Below are positions 1 through 42,126 of a stretch of 42,126 bases of DNA, piece after piece (position 1 is the stretch's first letter; each line of letters begins with the position of its first letter). The position numbers were made by a program, and so were the translations under genes. The notes beneath the pieces are model-generated. The model did no database searches, had not been told where the DNA came from, and saw only the letters and a program-made list of their open reading frames with translations. Source of the stretch: a virus. Where the stretch lies: IMG/VR virus record IMGVR_UViG_3300050122_000047, positions 1-42,126 of that record; one strand, written 5' to 3'.

Positions 1-127
1 GCCGGTCTGCGCGGCGACGCCGGCACCGACGTTGCGCAGGGCGCGGCGGGTCCAGCCTTGGGTCGGGGCGTCGGCGTCGGGGAACAGCGTCACCACGCGC
101 ACGTCGCCTTCAAAGTCGTTGTTCAGG
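1..127. repeat. Left copy of exact 127-bp direct terminal repeat (identical to 42000-42126)
   Basis: Read base by base: gccggtctgcgcggcgacgcc...caaagtcgttgttcagg occurs at 1-127 and at 42000-42126 with no mismatch. Confidence 0.95.
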
Positions 128-27940: not shown

Positions 27941-27971
27941 AGGCTCCGGGGCTATGCTCTGGAGCCTTTTT
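27941..27971 (+). terminator. Rho-independent terminator after the SNF2 gene, upstream of the holin
   Basis: aggctcc (27941-27947) / ggagcct (27961-27967) followed by TTTTT (27967-27971). Confidence 0.6.
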
Positions 27972-27986
27972 CGTGGAGACGAGACA

Positions 27987-28250
27987 ATGCCCCCGATCAT
28001 CCCGCAGCTCATTCCCGAGTGGAAGTCCGCCTGGCGCTGGTCGTCCGTTCGCCTGATGGCGCTGTCCGGCATGATCCAAGGCGTCCTGATGGCGTTCCCG
28101 GACCAGCTCAAGACCTACATCAGCCCGGACGTGCTCAAGTACCTGTCCGAGGCGGCGCTGGCCATCCTCATTCTCGCCGGCATTGGCCGGATCACCGCCC
28201 GCCCTGGAGACACCGATGTTCAACCCCCTAAGCCTAATTCCCAACCCTAA
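27987..28250 (+). CDS. Putative holin (87 aa, two hydrophobic segments)
   Basis: ATG 27987 with GGAGA 7 nt upstream; the track start 27954 lies inside the terminator. Translation MPPIIPQLIPEWKSAWRWSSVRLMALSGMIQGVLMAF...AALAILILAGIGRI. Directly precedes the spanins. Confidence 0.5.
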   Translation: MPPIIPQLIPEWKSAWRWSSVRLMALSGMIQGVLMAFPDQLKTYISPDVLKYLSEAALAILILAGIGRITARPGDTDVQPPKPNSQP

Positions 28251-28773
28251 GACCCTGCTGGTCGGCTTCGCAGCCGGCGCGCTCCTGGTCGGCGTCCCCG
28301 CCTCGCTCGTGGTCCACAAGATGGACCAGGCCGCGCTGGAGAAAGTGCAGCTTGCCGACGCCAAGGCCGCGACCGTGGCCGTCTCCCAGGCCGCCGCGAC
28401 CACCCACACCCTCGACACGCAGAACGGCACCGCTGCGGTCGCTGAGACCAAAGCCCAGGTGCAGATCGTCCACGACGTCCAAACCGTCACGAAGGAGATT
28501 CCCGTCTATGTCACCCCTGCTCAAGATGCTCGTTCCCCTTGCGCTGTCACTGTTGGCCTCGTGCGCATCCTCTACGCCAGCGCCCACGGCCTCGATCCCG
28601 CCAGCCTCACTCCTCCCGCCGGCTCCACTGATGACTCCTGCACGGCCGTTTCAGTCTCTGACCTGGCCGCCGCTCTTGCCACCGACTACGGCGTCGGCCG
28701 CGCCAATGCCGAACAGCTAGACGCCCTGATCGCGGCTGTGAAAGCGAACGCCCAGGCTCTCAGCGCGCCCTAA
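28216..28773 (+). CDS. i-spanin (Rz-like): N-terminal TM anchor plus a helical periplasmic domain
   Basis: ATG 28216 with GGAGA upstream. TM segment LLVGFAAGALLVGVPASLVV. It contains an embedded lipoprotein ORF in the +1 frame. Confidence 0.65.
   Translation: MFNPLSLIPNPKTLLVGFAAGALLVGVPASLVVHKMDQAALEKVQLADAKAATVAVSQAAATTHTLDTQNGTAAVAETKAQVQIVHDVQTVTKEIPVYVTPAQDARSPCAVTVGLVRILYASAHGLDPASLTPPAGSTDDSCTAVSVSDLAAALATDYGVGRANAEQLDALIAAVKANAQALSAP
28508..28720 (+). CDS. o-spanin (Rz1-like) lipoprotein, fully embedded in the i-spanin gene
   Basis: MSPLLKMLVPLALSLLASCASS carries the lipobox LLAS|C. The mature part is Pro-rich. The architecture is the lambda Rz/Rz1 embedded type. Confidence 0.65.
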   Translation: MSPLLKMLVPLALSLLASCASSTPAPTASIPPASLLPPAPLMTPARPFQSLTWPPLLPPTTASAAPMPNS

Positions 28774-28810
28774 GCCCCGGCGGCCTCGGCCGCTGTGCAG
28801 CACAGAGCCC

Positions 28811-28847
28811 AAAAAGAAGGCCCCTGGATTGCTCCGGGGGCCTTTAG
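28811..28847. terminator. Bidirectional hairpin terminator at the convergence of the two arms
   Basis: aaggcccctgga (28817-28828) / tccgggggcctt (28833-28844), ~12 bp with one G-U pair. Flanked by AAAAAGA on the left and TTT on the right, so the minus-strand reading ends in TTCTTTTT. Confidence 0.7.
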
Positions 28848-28880
28848 TCTGTCCAGGGTGAAAGGAAAAGCCCCTGGAGG

Positions 28881-29444
28881 TTAGGAAAGGAGGGTCCAGT
28901 CCTCGGCCAGGACATCGCCTTGGGAGGCCAGCCATGGCACGACGGTATCCTGCGCCGTCTTCATGTCAATGTGGCTCTGGTAGTTGATCTCGGTGCCCTC
29001 GGGATAGATGCCCAGCAGCGGGGCGCGGTTGACCTTGAAGGTCGAGCCCGGCACCAGGAACAGGAACATGCCTTTGCCGTTCCAGCCTAGGCGCGTGACC
29101 TTCATGCCGTCTTTGAGGTAGCGCACGGCCTGGCCGAAGTCGAACACCGTGGCCGGCTGTTGGGCCTGCTGCGCGTGCAGCGTCGGCGCGATCTCGCCGG
29201 CCGCGACGGCCTTCTGGTAGGGCATCCAGCGCCAGGTGTCGCCGTTCGGCGTCTCGTCCGGGCCGGTGTTTTCGGGAACGTGGGTGAACACCGCAGCGTG
29301 GTCGCGAGTGAACACGATCAGGTCCACGTCATTCGTGAGCTGGCCGACGCCCTTGCCATAGACATGGGTTACGATGGCGGGGTGGGTCTCGACGCCGCCG
29401 AGGCGCTGGTAGAGGACTATCCGGCCGAGGGTTGGTTTTGTCAT
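28881..29444 (-). CDS. Fusion protein: N-terminal small beta (SH3/Tudor-like) domain plus C-terminal DUF2829 (Thoeris anti-defence Tad2-type) domain
   Basis: 187 aa. The C-terminal FDFGQAVRYLKDGMKVTRLGWNGKGMFLFLVPGSTFKVNRAPLLGIYPEGTEINYQSHIDMKTAQDTVVPWLASQGDVLAEDWTLL is a near-consensus DUF2829 pattern. ATGA-coupled to the HNH gene. Confidence 0.65.
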   Translation of the reverse strand: MTKPTLGRIVLYQRLGGVETHPAIVTHVYGKGVGQLTNDVDLIVFTRDHAAVFTHVPENTGPDETPNGDTWRWMPYQKAVAAGEIAPTLHAQQAQQPATVFDFGQAVRYLKDGMKVTRLGWNGKGMFLFLVPGSTFKVNRAPLLGIYPEGTEINYQSHIDMKTAQDTVVPWLASQGDVLAEDWTLLS

Positions 29445-29782
29445 TGCTTCATCTCCTTTGCGCGGCGCAGATCGCGGCGCTTCTGATTCGTCTTGTGGGT
29501 CACCAGCTCCAGGTGCTCCGGGTTACAACAGCGTCGGCCGGCGTTGCCGGGAAGCTCCACACAAGTATGGTCTAGCTGCTTCTTAGGCGGGATCGGGCCG
29601 AAGCGGATCACCCACATAACGATATGAACGGCCATGGTCGCGCCGTCAATGCAGATACGGCCGTACCCGCCGCCGCGCCCTGATCCTGAGTCTGGCCCAT
29701 CCCAGCGGTGGCACCCACAGGGCAACACCGTGACGCGGGCCATGACCTTATCCCAGAGCGTTAGGCGGCGGTCGGTCATCAT
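29441..29782 (-). CDS. HNH endonuclease (113 aa)
   Basis: ATG 29782 in an ATGA overlap with the lysozyme stop. Motifs CGCHRW, GYGRICIDGATMAVHIVMW, LDHTC...CCNPEHLELVTHKTN. Confidence 0.75.
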   Translation of the reverse strand: MMTDRRLTLWDKVMARVTVLPCGCHRWDGPDSGSGRGGGYGRICIDGATMAVHIVMWVIRFGPIPPKKQLDHTCVELPGNAGRRCCNPEHLELVTHKTNQKRRDLRRAKEMKQ

Positions 29783-30231
29783 GGCAGGTCGAAGTAGCGT
29801 TCCTCGGCCTGGCGACGGGTCAGAAGGCCCGCCAGCACCGCGCCGGCTTGTTTGTCCCACTTGGGGAACTCGTTCGCCGCGCCGGCCAGGTCGCCAGCGT
29901 TCAGCAGCCGCAGCATGGTCGAGCCCAGGAAGTTGCCGGAGCCGATGTTGAACACCAGCGACACCAGGGCGTCGAACTCGTGCTGCGTGAGCTGGACGCC
30001 GGTCACATGGCTGTTGACCAGCCGCGCGGCCGAGGCAACGTCGGACACCAGCCAGGCGTTGGCCTCGTCCATGGTGCAGGTCGTGTCCGCTGTGACGCCG
30101 TTCGTGTGGCCAAAGCCGGCGGTCCAGACGTCCTTCGGGGTTGGCTTGTAGCCGGTGGGGCGGAACTTCTCAAACCCCTTGAGGAAGTCGTAGAGCCACT
30201 GACTCGGGGTCAGGTTGTTGACGTAGTTCAA
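29779..30231 (-). CDS. Endolysin, GH24 (T4/lambda-type) lysozyme
   Basis: 150 aa. FLKGFEKFRPTGYKPTPKDVWTAGFGHT (catalytic Glu context) and LVSLVFNIGSGNF. TTG start in a TTGA overlap, preceded by AAGGAGG. Confidence 0.8.
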   Translation of the reverse strand: MNYVNNLTPSQWLYDFLKGFEKFRPTGYKPTPKDVWTAGFGHTNGVTADTTCTMDEANAWLVSDVASAARLVNSHVTGVQLTQHEFDALVSLVFNIGSGNFLGSTMLRLLNAGDLAGAANEFPKWDKQAGAVLAGLLTRRQAEERYFDLP

Positions 30232-30782
30232 AGCCGTACCTCCTTAAAGGTGCCGAGGACGGGAGCGCCGTTCACGACCTGGTTGCCCTGGCGCATCTCC
30301 ACGGGGGTGCCGTTGACGCCGTCTTTAAGGGCGATCTCCAGCGCGGCCATGGCGTTCCAAGCCAGGTGCGCCAGGTGGGCGATCTGGCTCTCGTCGTCGT
30401 AGCGTTCGATTGCGGCCTTGGTCATGTGCCGGCCGATCCCGTCGCTGTAGCGGTTGAAGCCGTTGGGCACCTTCTGCCAGTCGGTCTTATATTCGCCGTC
30501 ATTGTATTTCCTGGCCCCGTACTCGGACACCAGGGCCACGGCGTTCATGGCGCGCGGGAAATAGGCGATGAAGCCACATACGACCGGGGCCTTGCCCACG
30601 TCCATCTTGCGGGCACCGTTCGCGCCATCGCCCACGCGGGCCTCGCCGAACGCCTTCTGGCCCAGCGGCACGATGGCCGGGACGGACACGGCCTCGCGAG
30701 CCGACGCGCCTCTGCTGAGATGCTTGCTGTAGTCCCTCTGCGCCTTCGCAAGCGTGATCGGGCGGGGTGCTGTTTTAGCCAC
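30228..30782 (-). CDS. DUF5664-type protein (domain found at the N-terminus of phage dATP/dGTP diphosphohydrolases)
   Basis: 184 aa, GTG start. MDVGKAPV...AMNAVALVSEYGARKYNDGEYKTDWQKVPNGFNRYSDGIGRHMTKAAIERYDDESQIAHLAHLAWNAMAALE matches the D.GK...G..KY....W....y.dA..RH.....D.ES...HlaH pattern. Confidence 0.55.
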   Translation of the reverse strand: MAKTAPRPITLAKAQRDYSKHLSRGASAREAVSVPAIVPLGQKAFGEARVGDGANGARKMDVGKAPVVCGFIAYFPRAMNAVALVSEYGARKYNDGEYKTDWQKVPNGFNRYSDGIGRHMTKAAIERYDDESQIAHLAHLAWNAMAALEIALKDGVNGTPVEMRQGNQVVNGAPVLGTFKEVRL

Positions 30783-31428
30783 GGGTCAGTCTCCTATAGC
30801 GGGTCATAAACTCGCCGCGCGAGCGGGAGATCGACCAAGGGATGATAAGCTCGGGCCAGGTCTGCGGCGGTGTGCCCCAATCAACCAGGCCCAGGTTGTT
30901 CTGGAGATCGCGGTGCTCGGCCGCGACGGCGAGATAGTCCTGGTGCTTGACCTCCGGCGTCATCTGCGCCGGCAGGCCGAACTTGGCCCGGATCACAGCT
31001 TCGACGCCGTGCTCTAGCTCTTTCCAGTAGTCCCGGCCGCCGGACAGGGTTGCCAGGTTCATCTTGATCGGCTTGGCCATGTCGCCCAGGACGTACTCCT
31101 GCGCGTCGTGCAGCAGCCCTTCGAGCTGTAGCTCCGGCGGCAGGTGATCGGACACCAGGCACGAGTGCTGAGCAACCGTGTAAATCTCGACACTGTCTTT
31201 CAGCGCGCCGTTGAACCGGCAGAGCCTGGACAGGTGGGAGGCGATGTCCTCGATATGGACGTCGTCGTCGGACGGGACCAGGGACCAGAACGGATGACCC
31301 GAGGCGAGGGTTTGATTGTACCCCCGCCCCGTGTCAGCTCCGGCCATCTTGCCCGTGTCGAACTTCGCCATCTCTTGCCTGCGCAAGTAGTCGGCGCTGT
31401 CCAATGCGAGTTGAAGGCCGTCGCCCAT
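30775..31428 (-). CDS. HD-domain phosphohydrolase (YfbR-like 5'-deoxynucleotidase type)
   Basis: 217 aa. IEDIASHLSRLCRFNG, YTVAQHS, LLHDAQEYVLGDMAKPIK. Confidence 0.7.
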   Translation of the reverse strand: MGDGLQLALDSADYLRRQEMAKFDTGKMAGADTGRGYNQTLASGHPFWSLVPSDDDVHIEDIASHLSRLCRFNGALKDSVEIYTVAQHSCLVSDHLPPELQLEGLLHDAQEYVLGDMAKPIKMNLATLSGGRDYWKELEHGVEAVIRAKFGLPAQMTPEVKHQDYLAVAAEHRDLQNNLGLVDWGTPPQTWPELIIPWSISRSRGEFMTRYRRLTRG

Positions 31429-40547: not shown

Positions 40548-42126
40548 CTAGCTCGTGCGGTTGAGCCGCACCCTCCCGGACGTGATGGACGTGGGCGTGA
40601 GGGGGTCGCCCGTGTCGGGGTCCAGCTCGAACACGTCCTCCCGGTAGCTGGGCGTCAAGGTCAGAGCGTAGTCGCCGCCGTCCAAGTGGCCGTTGAGCGG
40701 GCCGACGAACGAGGCTTGCAGGGAGCAGGTGCCGTTGTCGTCCTTGAAGCTGCGGGTAACGATGGTCACAGCCTTGACGACCGTGGTGTCAGGCGGCGGC
40801 CGGTTGAAGTAGAATTCGCTCGGGCCGGGGATGTCGGCACCGCCGGCTAGGGTCGTTGAGGTCCAGGAGCCGTCGGCCGCCGTGGTCGAGGTCGCGATGG
40901 CGTCGCCAGCCGAGCCGGGCAGGTTGGCGACGACCTCCATTTGGCCGGAGGGCAGGCCGTTGGCCGTCACGTCATCGTTGACCAGGGTGCCCGCGCCGTA
41001 GGTGACGCCGACGCCCGGACCCAGGTTGATGGCGTTCAGCAGGTTGGACAGAGTGTCCTGCACGGTCGCACCGATCAGGACGTCGTAGGCCGCCGCGCCG
41101 GCAATGGTCGTCACGAAGCGATAGACCGCAGCGGTCGGCGTGCCGGAGCCCTTTGTGCCGACCGTCACGGTCTCGTGGTTCGAGGGCAGGGCCGTCTGGG
41201 TGTAGATGCTGAACGCGGGCGTGAGCGCGGCCTCAATAAAGGTGTAGTCGATGGGCGTGGCGCTGTTTATGTCCTGGAAATTGAAGAAGCCATCCTGCGG
41301 CAGAACGATGACCGGCAGGTTCGTGCCGGAGCCGCTAATGCGCATCAGGGACCCGTGCGAGGAGTCGTCGGTGAAGGAGTTGTTGTCGAACCCCAGCAGG
41401 AGGGCGACGTCCAAGAAGTCGGGATCGGTGATCGTGTTGCGGCCGAACGGAACCGTCGTCGGCGTGAAGTTCGCGATGTAGCGAGCGACGCCGATGGTCA
41501 GCCGCAGCTCGTCCATCCAGCCATAGACGCTCTTGAACTGCGCCGGGCCGAAAACGTCCTGCTGGCCGCCGAAGGAGGTAGCCTCGGTGCCCGCGAACGG
41601 AACGGTCGTGTCGGGAACAGGCAGGCCTTGCTGGATGCCGTCGATGAACAGCAGAAGCTCGCCCGAAGCGCGGACCACCGCCAGGTGATACCAGCGGTTC
41701 GTGTCGGGGACGAAAGGCCACTGGATCGCGTCGAACACGGTCCCGGAGAACCCATTCGGACTGTAGCGCAGGGACAGGTTGCCACCAGTTCCAGGGCCTT
41801 GTAGGTAGAACTGCCACGACCGCTGGTTGTCAAGCTCGCTCCACTTGCCCGCCATGGTCATCTGGTTCGTCCCGCTGGGCAAGCCGGCGAAGCGGTAGAA
41901 GCCCTCAATGGTGAAGTCGCCAGCGCCGAGGTCGGTTGTGGGCGTGTTGGTCGTCCAGATCACTTCTTGGTCGCCGTTGGGGGAGCCGCCGGTCTGTAGG
42001 CCGGTCTGCGCGGCGACGCCGGCACCGACGTTGCGCAGGGCGCGGCGGGTCCAGCCTTGGGTCGGGGCGTCGGCGTCGGGGAACAGCGTCACCACGCGCA
42101 CGTCGCCTTCAAAGTCGTTGTTCAGG
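40548..42126 (-). CDS. 3' part of the 733-aa LamG/concanavalin-like tail protein (continuation of 750..1)
   Basis: DFTIEGFYRF...QRSWQFYLQ...NRWYHLAVVRASGELLLFIDGIQQG...YGWMDELRLTIGVARY is a typical Laminin_G_3-type jelly-roll. The track start at 42101 is an internal GTG. Confidence 0.8.
   Translation of the reverse strand, partial: LNNDFEGDVRVVTLFPDADAPTQGWTRRALRNVGAGVAAQTGLQTGGSPNGDQEVIWTTNTPTTDLGAGDFTIEGFYRFAGLPSGTNQMTMAGKWSELDNQRSWQFYLQGPGTGGNLSLRYSPNGFSGTVFDAIQWPFVPDTNRWYHLAVVRASGELLLFIDGIQQGLPVPDTTVPFAGTEATSFGGQQDVFGPAQFKSVYGWMDELRLTIGVARYIANFTPTTVPFGRNTITDPDFLDVALLLGFDNNSFTDDSSHGSLMRISGSGTNLPVIVLPQDGFFNFQDINSATPIDYTFIEAALTPAFSIYTQTALPSNHETVTVGTKGSGTPTAAVYRFVTTIAGAAAYDVLIGATVQDTLSNLLNAINLGPGVGVTYGAGTLVNDDVTANGLPSGQMEVVANLPGSAGDAIATSTTAADGSWTSTTLAGGADIPGPSEFYFNRPPPDTTVVKAVTIVTRSFKDDNGTCSLQASFVGPLNGHLDGGDYALTLTPSYREDVFELDPDTGDPLTPTSITSGRVRLNRTS
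42000..42126. repeat. Right copy of the exact 127-bp terminal repeat
   Basis: Identical to 1-127. Confidence 0.95.

What the first reader, a model, noticed from the sequence alone, without database searches (positions are those of the whole stretch)
28881..29444. SH3-like domain fused to a DUF2829 (Tad2-type) domain: candidate immune-signal sponge with a novel architecture
The C-terminal ~90 aa are close to the DUF2829 consensus. This is the family to which the Thoeris anti-defence protein Tad2 (a gcADPR sponge) belongs. Characterised Tad2 proteins are small single-domain proteins. Here the domain is preceded by a ~95-aa beta-rich domain (GRIVLYQRLGGVETHPAIVTHVYG...DLIVFTRD...WRWMPYQ) and is the last gene of the arm, ATGA-coupled to an HNH gene. 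The extra domain may add a second ligand pocket, an oligomerisation surface or a targeting function.
Basis: partly seen in the sequence, partly recalled or inferred. Interest (0 to 1): 0.7.

Follow-up and report, generated by a model that had tools for sequence, protein, structure and literature searches.

The report
Tad2 sponge fused to unknown module
A phage gene joins a known "sponge" domain, which soaks up bacterial alarm molecules, to a small uncharacterised domain that elsewhere is joined to four other sponge families, so that domain is a good candidate for a new counter-defence protein family.

Summary
ORF 28881-29444 (minus strand, 187 aa) has a C-terminal Tad2-like/DUF2829 domain (Pfam E 8e-24; solved Tad2 proteins E 1e-18). 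The main gcADPR-contact residues of SPO1 Tad2 are kept. The N-terminal ~92 aa fold confidently (pLDDT 89) into five beta-strands plus a helix.

"Novel architecture" is only partly right. Among the 120 nearest Tad2 relatives, 84 carry an N-terminal extension, and sponge-sponge fusions (Acb4-Tad2, Tad2-Sequestin) are already published.

The new part is the N-terminal module:
- It has no Pfam, NCBIfam or PDB relative. I found no mention of its motif in the papers searched.
- It defines a family of at least 5,260 cluster representatives, mostly stand-alone 80-125 aa phage proteins with a near-invariant WMPYQ(K) motif.
- Every partner I could identify is an experimentally validated signal-sponge family: Tad2, Tad1, Acb4, Sequestin and the RyR domain.
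- In one viral contig it lies 43 nt upstream of a separate Tad2 gene of the same clade.

My best reading is a two-module counter-defence protein: a tetrameric Tad2 sponge for TIR-made ADPR signals, tethered to a second anti-signalling module. That module may be a sponge for another signal. An oligomerisation role is the main rival. None of this is tested experimentally.

The parts
28881..29444 (-). Whole ORF, 187 aa plus TAA stop: N-terminal module, linker, Tad2-like domain
   Evidence: ORF list. Pfam and PHROG hits. Full-length homologues P0002 and P0003.
29169..29444 (-). N-terminal module, aa 1-92: five-stranded beta-barrel-like domain plus a short helix. It belongs to an unannotated phage family.
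   Evidence: No Pfam or NCBIfam hit. phrog_2293 E 5e-12. Stand-alone homologues P0121-P0133. Profile search finds 5,260 representatives at E<=1e-3. AF2 pLDDT 88.8.
29172..29228 (-). Conserved motif W73-A91 (WMPYQKAVAAGEIAPTLHA). W73, M74, Y76 and Q77 are invariant or nearly so across 92 family members.
   Evidence: Alignments A1/A2 and A6.
29145..29168 (-). Gln/Ala/Pro-rich linker, aa 93-100 (QQAQQPAT). Low model confidence, so presumed flexible.
   Evidence: pLDDT below 50 for residues 93-97. Linker length varies from 8 to about 75 aa among homologues.
28884..29144 (-). Tad2-like (DUF2829, PF11195) domain, aa 101-187. W121, N122, T163, W171, S174 and D177 correspond to SPO1 Tad2 W25, N26, T65, W73, S76 and D79.
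   Evidence: Pfam E 8e-24. PDB sequence hits. Foldseek probability 1.0 to Tad2 structures. Contact residues taken from 10.1101/2023.05.01.538930 and mapped on the alignment.
29453..29457 (-). Shine-Dalgarno-like AGGAG, 8 nt upstream of the ATG
   Evidence: Read from the sequence.
28809..28844 (-). Intrinsic-terminator-like hairpin (AAGGCCCCC...GGGGCCUU) followed by CUUUUU, 37 nt after the stop codon
   Evidence: RNA fold of 28795-28885(-): -37.2 kcal/mol, z -2.3. The consensus scanner missed it.
29441..29782 (-). HNH endonuclease gene. The listed ORF runs to 29860, but the likely start is the ATG at 29782. It overlaps its neighbours by ATGA at both ends. It is an inserted homing-type gene and not part of the system.
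   Evidence: PF13392 E 1e-9, phrog_1872 E 7e-37. Absent at the same place in syntenic L005. Overlaps read from the sequence.

Best explanation
The gene encodes a two-module phage counter-defence protein.

Module 2 (aa 101-187) is a Tad2-family sponge. By homology it should form a homotetramer whose inter-protomer pockets bind and sequester TIR-made ADP-ribose-derived alarm signals, so that the Thoeris effector is never switched on. The most likely ligands are 1''-3'/1''-2' gcADPR. His-ADPR or N7-cADPR are possible, given the known diversity of the family.

Module 1 (aa 1-92) is joined by a short flexible linker. It is an autonomous small beta-barrel domain from a very large, unannotated family of mostly stand-alone phage proteins. 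I infer that it contributes a second, independent anti-signalling activity. The most likely form is binding of a different immune signal at a site built from the conserved R8, W73, Y76, Q77 and K78. A tetramer would then carry four copies of it.

What is shown:
- domain identities;
- conservation of the Tad2 contact residues;
- autonomy, size and fusion partners of the N-module family.

What is inferred:
- tetramer formation;
- the ligands;
- any activity of the N-module.
For: Tad2 module:
- PF11195, E 8e-24.
- E 1e-18 to 1e-13 to six solved Tad2/AcrIIA7 proteins. Foldseek probability 1.0.
- SPO1 contact residues W25, N26, W73 and D79, plus T65 and S76, are conserved as W121, N122, W171, D177, T163 and S174.

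N-module:
- It occurs alone in 104 of the 150 best representatives. The family has 5,260 representatives at E<=1e-3.
- Among those 150, the only Pfam partners are PF21825 Sequestin (5), PF13876 Acb4 (4) and RyR (1). All three are experimentally shown sponges.
- It is also fused to Tad1 in L007/L009 (PDB 8kbb, E 4.5e-16).
- It is fused to Tad2 in the window, P0002, P0003, P0031, P0044 and L018.
- In L016 the N-module gene lies 43 nt upstream of a separate Tad2 gene of the same clade.
- 'Fused to Tad2 or Acb4' is the criterion by which Sequestin was discovered, and 10 of 13 tested members were active.
- That screen queried Pfam families, so a domain with no Pfam family would not have been picked up. 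N-module+Sequestin fusions do appear among the sequences in that paper's supplementary file 6.
- The window copy keeps every invariant family residue.
Against: - There are no experimental data for the N-module.
- I could run only monomer models, so no oligomer or pocket was seen.
- The analogous orphan N-terminal domain of RyR Tad (CB1 gp68_N) had no anti-Thoeris-I activity alone and serves dimerisation.
- 30 of the 150 family members carry tails of unknown nature, so 'all partners are sponges' covers only the identifiable ones.
- In fusions with an identified partner the N-module is always N-terminal, which also fits an accessory domain.
- In the Tad2 domain, T78 is replaced by G176, D67 by Q165 and H71 by V169, so ligand preference is uncertain.
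- The C-terminal domain is modelled with low confidence as a monomer (pLDDT 48-83).
- The gene sits at the end of the leftward arm, which also carries the structural, nucleotide-metabolism and endolysin genes, not in an obvious early anti-defence island.
Confidence: 0.55

Rival explanations
1. The N-module has no ligand or target of its own. It is an accessory oligomerisation or stabilisation domain that dimerises and raises the valency or stability of whichever sponge it is attached to. The protein is then functionally a plain Tad2 sponge.
For: - Precedent: in RyR Tad (CB1 gp68) the N-terminal five-stranded beta domain forms a domain-swapped dimer and is inactive alone against type I Thoeris.
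- That other module is the commonest N-extension of this Tad2 clade (52 of 120).
- In fusions with an identified partner our N-module is always N-terminal.
Against: - 104 of the 150 best family members are stand-alone proteins, and the module occurs as a separate gene next to Tad2 in L016. A pure helper domain has no obvious role alone.
- The conserved residues are polar or aromatic (R8, W73, Y76, Q77, K78, H90), more typical of a binding site than of a packing interface.
- gp68_N was tested against one system only.
- Our module is not homologous to gp68_N (HHalign probability 0.1%).
Confidence: 0.25
2. The N-module is a protein-binding inhibitor. It would dock onto a defence component, such as the TIR signal producer or an effector, so that the fusion blocks signalling at two levels.
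For: - The nearest folds, though weak, are Tudor/PWWP-type barrels, which are peptide-binding modules.
- Protein-binding Thoeris inhibitors (Tad3-Tad8) are reported to exist, as cited in PMC13243611.
Against: - Fold matches are not significant (best E 0.26).
- The module is fused to sponges aimed at different systems (Acb4 for CBASS, the others for Thoeris). That argues against one specific protein target.
- I could not retrieve Tad3-8 sequences for comparison.
Confidence: 0.12
3. The protein is not a counter-defence factor. Either the DUF2829 domain acts as an anti-CRISPR (AcrIIA7-like), or it binds a nucleotide metabolite in the service of the neighbouring nucleotide-metabolism genes.
For: - Sequence similarity to AcrIIA7 (9kzr, E 1e-13).
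- The gene lies in the same gene block as a dGTP_diPhyd_N protein and an HD phosphatase.
Against: - The literature reassigns DUF2829 from anti-CRISPR to signal sequestration. 'AcrIIA7' (HgmTad2) was solved bound to gcADPR and cGG.
- The gcADPR contact residues are conserved here.
- The N-module's partners are all anti-defence sponges.
Confidence: 0.05
4. The two-domain ORF is an artefact: two adjacent genes read as one through a sequencing or assembly error.
For: A split arrangement exists in L016, with separate N-module and Tad2 genes 43 nt apart.
Against: - The continuous ORF recurs in at least five other independent contigs. They share 32-52% identity with the window copy in the N-module and 42-79% in Tad2.
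- There is no in-frame stop or second start signal in the linker.
Confidence: 0.02

Closest known systems
Tad2 (Thoeris anti-defence 2; DUF2829/PF11195), e.g. SPO1 Tad2 (PDB 8SME-8SMG), ModTad2 (9EIB), HgmTad2/AcrIIA7 (8KBI)
   Same: - The C-terminal 87 aa are about 40-45% identical to solved Tad2 proteins.
- The same GWNGK and W-x-x-S-x-x-D motifs carry the gcADPR contacts.
- The beta2-beta5 insertion is short, as in SPO1 Tad2.
   Different: - A 92-aa extra domain precedes it.
- T78 is replaced by Gly, D67 by Gln and H71 by Val.
- The insertion is nearly invariant within this clade, unlike the family at large.
- There is no long HgmTad2-type insertion, so the cyclic-dinucleotide pocket of HgmTad2 is not expected.
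Published sponge-sponge fusions: Acb4-Tad2 (Pasteurella phage Pm86), Tad2-Sequestin, Acb4-Sequestin (Ab09 gp59)
   Same: One polypeptide combines a Tad2 or other sponge domain with a second small autonomous phage domain through a linker. Both domains also occur as stand-alone genes.
   Different: The partner here is not a validated sponge and belongs to no named family.
RyR Tad (Pectobacterium phage CB1 gp68): orphan N-terminal beta domain plus RyR-like gcADPR sponge
   Same: [quoted passage not shown] The RyR domain is also one of our N-module's partners (P0202).
   Different: - gp68_N is a different family (HHalign probability 0.1%). It matches the N-extension of P0007, P0009 and P0103 instead.
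- The C-terminal sponge is RyR, not Tad2.
Lockin sponge family
   Same: A small beta-rich phage protein with no domain annotation. Its ligand-contact stretch GWMKSTK resembles WMPYQK at the motif level.
   Different: No detectable homology (HHalign probability 0.2%, no HMM hits). The motif sits at a different place in the chain.
Tudor/PWWP/SH3-like small beta-barrels
   Same: Five-stranded barrel followed by a helix. These are the top Foldseek matches.
   Different: The matches are not significant (E 0.26-2, TM about 0.4), and there is no sequence relationship.

Membership tests
Tad2 / DUF2829 (PF11195) | Match to the family HMM above the curated threshold | tested here: met
   84.4 bits against a cut-off of 25, E 8e-24, profile positions 2-72 of 73.
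Tad2 / DUF2829 (PF11195) | Sequence and fold similarity to solved Tad2 structures | tested here: met
   phmmer E 9e-19 (9eib) to 5e-13 (8kbi). Foldseek probability 1.0, E 8e-7, TM to target 0.64-0.74 despite a low-confidence model.
Tad2 / DUF2829 (PF11195) | gcADPR-contact residues of SPO1 Tad2 (W25, N26, W73, D79 as main contacts; T78, I63, T65 to adenine; D67, H71, S76 to waters) | tested here: met
   - W121, N122, W171, D177, T163 and S174 are conserved.
- I63 is M161, T78 is G176, D67 is Q165 and H71 is V169.
- So the main contacts are kept, while one adenine contact and two water ligands are changed.
- Residues, mapped on the alignment.
Tad2 / DUF2829 (PF11195) | Homotetramer with pockets between non-dimeric protomers | not testable with these tools
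   Only single-chain prediction was available. Helix alpha1, which mediates tetramerisation, is predicted at 103-111.
Tad2 / DUF2829 (PF11195) | Binds and sequesters a TIR-derived signal, and inhibits Thoeris | not testable with these tools
   Needs binding and plaque assays.
Sponge-sponge fusion proteins (Acb4-Tad2 type) | Both domains belong to experimentally validated sponge families | tested here: not met
   The N-module matches no Pfam, NCBIfam or PDB entry. It is not Lockin, and my Acb4, Sequestin, RyR and Tad1 HMMs found only Tad2 and the N-module in the window (Tad1 and Lockin HMMs added). It is only associated with such families.
RyR Tad gp68 N-terminal domain family | Detectable homology to gp68 residues 1-70 | tested here: not met
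   HHalign probability 0.1%, 7 aligned columns.
Lockin | Detectable homology to LockinA-E and relatives | tested here: not met
   HHalign probability 0.2%. The Lockin HMM finds nothing in the window or in any N-module protein.
SH3-like / Tudor / PWWP barrels | Significant structural match to a solved member | tested here: inconclusive
   Best is the HDGF PWWP domain, E 0.26, TM 0.41. No hit reaches E<=1e-3 with a pLDDT-89 model.
AcrIIA7-type anti-CRISPR | Inhibition of Cas9 | not testable with these tools
   Sequence similarity only (9kzr, E 1e-13). The literature favours signal sequestration for this family.

The most novel reading that the evidence does not exclude
The N-terminal module founds a new, very large family of phage immune-signal sponges, or of another kind of anti-signalling protein. 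Its pocket would be built around the invariant R8 and W73-M-P-Y-Q-K78, and it would bind a signal different from that of its partner. The window protein would then be a dual-specificity sponge. Thousands of 'hypothetical' 80-125 aa phage proteins would gain a function.
Probability: 0.35. Interest if true: 0.85.

Novelty: new variant of a known kind. Interest (0 to 1): 0.7.

Why it matters
Phage sponges that sequester bacterial alarm nucleotides are a fast-growing class. A 2026 paper counts six earlier families and adds a seventh.

Sequestin was found precisely because it is fused to Tad2 and Acb4. The N-terminal module here meets that same criterion more broadly. Its identifiable partners span Tad1, Tad2, Acb4, Sequestin and the RyR domain. 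It would not have been picked up by that screen, which queried Pfam families, because it has none.

If it is active, three things follow:
- A family of thousands of anonymous phage and prophage proteins would be annotated.
- The range of signals or targets that phages neutralise might widen.
- 'Fused to a sponge' would be confirmed as a general discovery rule.

If it turns out to be only a scaffold, it still shows, together with gp68_N, that sponges are commonly built with dedicated N-terminal oligomerisation modules.

Tried and rejected
Searches that found nothing:
- Megablast of half the window against GenBank phages: no match.
- tblastn of the full protein against phages: 311 records, none covering at least 80% of the query.
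- tblastn of the N-module alone: no match. The exact architecture is therefore absent from cultured phages at BLAST sensitivity.
- Pfam at E up to 10 and NCBIfam for the N-module: nothing.
- PDB profile search with the N-module alignment: nothing at E<=10.
- Two scans of bacterial genomes with the N-module profile. Both returned pattern matches but no confirmed locus, so I could not get a host distribution. The cluster look-up gave no organism names either.
- Literature search for the motif and for phrog_2293: nothing.
- The search for the Tad3-Tad8 paper did not find it.
- No supplementary text is held for PMC12393519, so I could not tell whether this Tad2 clade was among its 18 tested homologues.
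- Four N-module proteins with long unknown tails gave no PDB match.

Ideas tested and rejected:
- The N-module equals CB1 gp68_N. Rejected by reading gp68 and by HHalign.
- The N-module equals Lockin. Rejected.
- The HNH coupling is functional. Rejected because L005 lacks HNH.

Other negative results:
- The consensus terminator scan missed the hairpin, which I found by folding.
- The 80 best IMG/VR loci of this Tad2 clade hold no N-module, so the fusion is rare.

Full report
**1. The observation**

The window carries a 187-aa ORF on the minus strand at 28881-29444. Its ATG at 29444 has an AGGAG 8 nt upstream and overlaps the stop of the preceding HNH gene by ATGA (sequence).

Residues 102-185 match Pfam PF11195 (Tad2-like/DUF2829) at E 8e-24. 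They also match the sequences of solved Tad2 proteins:
- ModTad2 9eib/8v3e, E about 1e-18;
- SPO1 Tad2 8sme/8wje, E about 2e-14;
- AcrIIA7 9kzr, SptTad2 8wjd and HgmTad2 8kbi, E about 1e-13.

Residues 1-92 have no Pfam or NCBIfam match, only phrog_2293 of unknown function. AlphaFold2 gives the N-terminal part five strands and a helix at high confidence. The full-length model has pLDDT about 90 over residues 1-80, and the domain-only model built on 92 homologues has pLDDT 88.8 and pTM 0.77. The Tad2 part is modelled poorly as a monomer (pLDDT 48-83). That is expected for an obligate interlocked tetramer, and it still hits Tad2 structures with Foldseek probability 1.0.

**2. Genome context**

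The window begins and ends with the same 127 bases, so it is a complete, circularly assembled genome of about 42 kb with 64% G+C. It has no close relative among GenBank phages.
- The leftward arm carries terminase, portal, scaffold, major head and tail genes, ejection proteins, an exonuclease, an HD phosphatase, a dGTP_diPhyd_N protein, the endolysin, the HNH gene and finally this gene.
- The rightward arm carries primase, DNA polymerase, helicase, a holin and a signal-peptide protein, and ends at 28773.
- A GC-rich hairpin followed by a U-run at 28809-28844 follows the gene.

A metagenomic contig (L005) encodes the closest full-length homologue, P0002 (56% identity). It has the same gene order: HD phosphatase, dGTP_diPhyd_N, lysozyme, then the fusion gene. 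In place of the HNH gene it has a 46-aa ORF. The HNH gene is therefore an insertion, and its ATGA coupling says nothing about function.

**3. The Tad2 domain**

Yirmiya et al. list the contacts of SPO1 Tad2 with 1''-3' gcADPR:
- W25, W73, N26 and D79 are the main contacts;
- T78, I63 and T65 contact the adenine;
- D67, H71 and S76 act through waters.

On the HMMER alignment these map to W121, W171, N122, D177, G176, M161, T163, Q165, V169 and S174. The main contacts are intact. One adenine contact and two water ligands differ.

The beta2-beta5 insertion is 25 aa, as in SPO1 Tad2. It is not the 35-41 aa that form the cyclic-dinucleotide pocket of HgmTad2 and SptTad2. Within this clade the insertion is almost invariant, which hints at a function of its own. 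Because Tad2 homologues are now known to inhibit Thoeris I, II and IV, CBASS and Pycsar in different combinations, the exact ligand cannot be read from sequence. A TIR-derived ADPR signal is the best guess.

**4. Is the architecture novel?**

Not in general. I classified the 120 nearest cluster representatives of the full protein with HMMs that I built:
- 36 are single-domain;
- 52 carry an N-terminal module that turned out to be the same as the N-terminal domain of RyR Tad (CB1 gp68);
- 5 carry our N-module (the window protein, P0002, P0003, P0031 and P0044);
- 1 is a tandem Tad2;
- 26 carry other extensions.

Tal et al. (bioRxiv 10.1101/2025.07.12.664507) report that Tad2 and Acb4 are frequently fused. 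They show that the Pm86 Acb4-Tad2 fusion inhibits both Thoeris and CBASS. They used 'fused to Tad2 or Acb4' to discover Sequestin (PF21825). What is not described is this particular N-terminal module.

**5. The N-terminal module**

A search with residues 1-100 found 13 stand-alone proteins of 87-126 aa. They share an invariant C-terminal motif, W-M-P/A-Y-Q-K-A-V-A-A-G...H-A. A profile search of 1.84 billion representatives found 5,260 proteins at E<=1e-3 and 1,267 at E<=1e-10.

The best 150 break down as follows:
- 104 are the module alone;
- 30 have unidentified tails of 45 aa or more;
- 4 have N-terminal heads;
- 2 are tandem;
- 10 carry a Pfam domain.

Those ten Pfam domains are PF21825 Sequestin (5), PF13876 Acb4 (4) and RyR (1), and nothing else. 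Each of these is an experimentally validated sponge:
- Sequestin binds 3'cADPR;
- Acb4 binds 3'3'-cGAMP;
- the RyR-like domain of CB1 gp68 binds gcADPR.

In IMG/VR contigs found with the module's profile:
- L018 is another N-module-Tad2 fusion, with a different Tad2 clade;
- L016 has the N-module gene followed 43 nt later by a separate Tad2 gene of the window's clade (45% and 67% identity to the two halves of the window protein);
- L007 and L009 fuse the module to a domain that matches Tad1 (PDB 8kbb E 4.5e-16, 7uav E 2.4e-13).

The module is thus linked by fusion to five sponge families and by adjacency to one of them (Tad2). It is not one of them itself:
- Lockin sequences from the paper's supplement are unrelated (HHalign probability 0.2%);
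- gp68_N is unrelated (probability 0.1%);
- the PDB holds no sequence relative and no significant fold relative (best E 0.26, PWWP/Tudor barrels).

N-module+Sequestin fusions from Paraburkholderia prophages appear among the sequences in Tal et al.'s supplementary file 6. Their fusion screen queried Pfam families, so a domain with no Pfam family would not have been picked up.

**6. Mechanism**

Shown:
- two autonomous domains joined by a short, low-confidence Gln/Ala/Pro linker;
- an intact Tad2 contact set;
- an N-module that keeps every invariant family residue;
- recurrent fusion and adjacency of that module with sponges.

Inferred:
- The Tad2 part tetramerises through helix alpha1 (predicted at 103-111) and sequesters a TIR signal.
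- The N-module supplies a second anti-signalling function.
- I favour ligand binding, because the conserved positions are R8 at strand 1 and W73, Y76, Q77 and K78 at strand 5 and the start of the helix. In a small barrel the first and last strands usually pair, which would place these residues together. I have no coordinates to verify this.
- I also favour it because most family members must work alone.

The main rival is a pure oligomerisation domain, as shown for gp68_N, which was inactive alone against type I Thoeris. A protein-binding inhibitor is a third option. I cannot separate these without multimer modelling or experiments.

**7. Verdict**

The finding is real. Its functional reading as an immune-signal sponge is well supported for the C-terminal domain.
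- The fusion as such is a new variant of a documented kind.
- The combination is rare: 5 of the 120 nearest proteins, none of the 80 best IMG/VR loci of the clade, and no cultured phage.
- The valuable lead is the N-terminal module. It is a very large, unannotated phage family, and all its identifiable partners are validated sponges.
- It meets the criterion that led to Sequestin, and it is directly testable.

Noticed in passing
window 1-127 and 42000-42126: The first and last 127 bases are identical. The window is therefore a circularly assembled, complete phage genome of about 42.0 kb with 64.3% G+C. The 'arm' that ends at the finding wraps around the window ends.
   Followed up: partly
window 29441-29860 (-); L005 1877-2017: The HNH endonuclease gene overlaps its neighbours by ATGA at both ends (likely start ATG at 29782). 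It is absent from the syntenic relative L005, which has a 46-aa ORF there. This looks like a homing-endonuclease insertion.
   Followed up: partly
window 30228-31428 (-): A dATP/dGTP-diphosphohydrolase-N-domain protein (PF18909, E 2e-18) lies next to an HD-type deoxynucleotide phosphatase (phrog_318, E 3e-51), just upstream of the endolysin. This may be a nucleotide-pool or DNA-modification module. The larger unknown ORFs gave no Pfam hit, and no PurZ-like gene was seen.
   Followed up: partly
window 27954-28773 (+) and 29779-30231 (-): The lysis genes are split across the convergence point. The holin (phrog_1356) and a signal-peptide protein (phrog_4952) end the plus arm, while the endolysin sits on the minus arm. 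The Tad2 fusion gene lies between them.
   Followed up: no
P0007, P0009, P0103 and 49 others; L006 17143-17694: The commonest N-terminal extension of this Tad2 clade (52 of the 120 nearest) is the same module as the N-terminal domain of RyR Tad (CB1 gp68), with the pattern 'GYLVxY...SWSP..VF'. This second orphan module also has no Pfam hit.
   Followed up: partly
L007 and L009, 2983-3681 (+): A 233-aa ORF fuses the N-module to a Tad1-like domain (PDB 8kbb, E 4.5e-16). It occurs in two contigs from different samples. Tad1 had no Pfam hit in this copy of the library.
   Followed up: yes
L016 2971-3402 and 3446-3751 (+): The N-module gene (143 aa, with a Pro-rich tail) and a separate single-domain Tad2 gene of the window's clade lie 43 nt apart on the same strand. 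This is a plausible unfused state of the window gene.
   Followed up: yes
window aa 133-157 of the ORF (nt 28974-29048); alignment A7: The beta2-beta5 insertion (GSTFKVNRAPLLGIYPEGTEINY) varies across the Tad2 family but is almost invariant in this clade. R140 aligns with SPO1 F44, the residue said to occlude the second pocket. The clade may therefore have a second, charged pocket. The alignment is uncertain in this stretch.
   Followed up: no
N-module W73-K78 compared with LockinA W43-K48: The invariant WMPYQK of the N-module aligns with GWMKSTK of Lockin, whose K45, S46, T47 and K48 contact 3'cADPR. The overall profile comparison is not significant (probability 0.2%), so this may be coincidence.
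   Followed up: partly
P0239, P0267 (N-module proteins): Two family members have hydrophobic, signal-peptide-like heads of about 50 aa before the module. These are either mis-called starts or exported or membrane-anchored versions.
   Followed up: no
L001 4001-4264; L008: Stand-alone N-module genes sit between the portal and scaffold/capsid genes of a P22-like prophage, like a moron in a late operon. They are not in an early accessory region.
   Followed up: no
P0045; P0165, P0259, P0281: Tandem duplications exist for both modules: Tad2-Tad2 in P0045, and N-module twice in one protein in P0165, P0259 and P0281.
   Followed up: no
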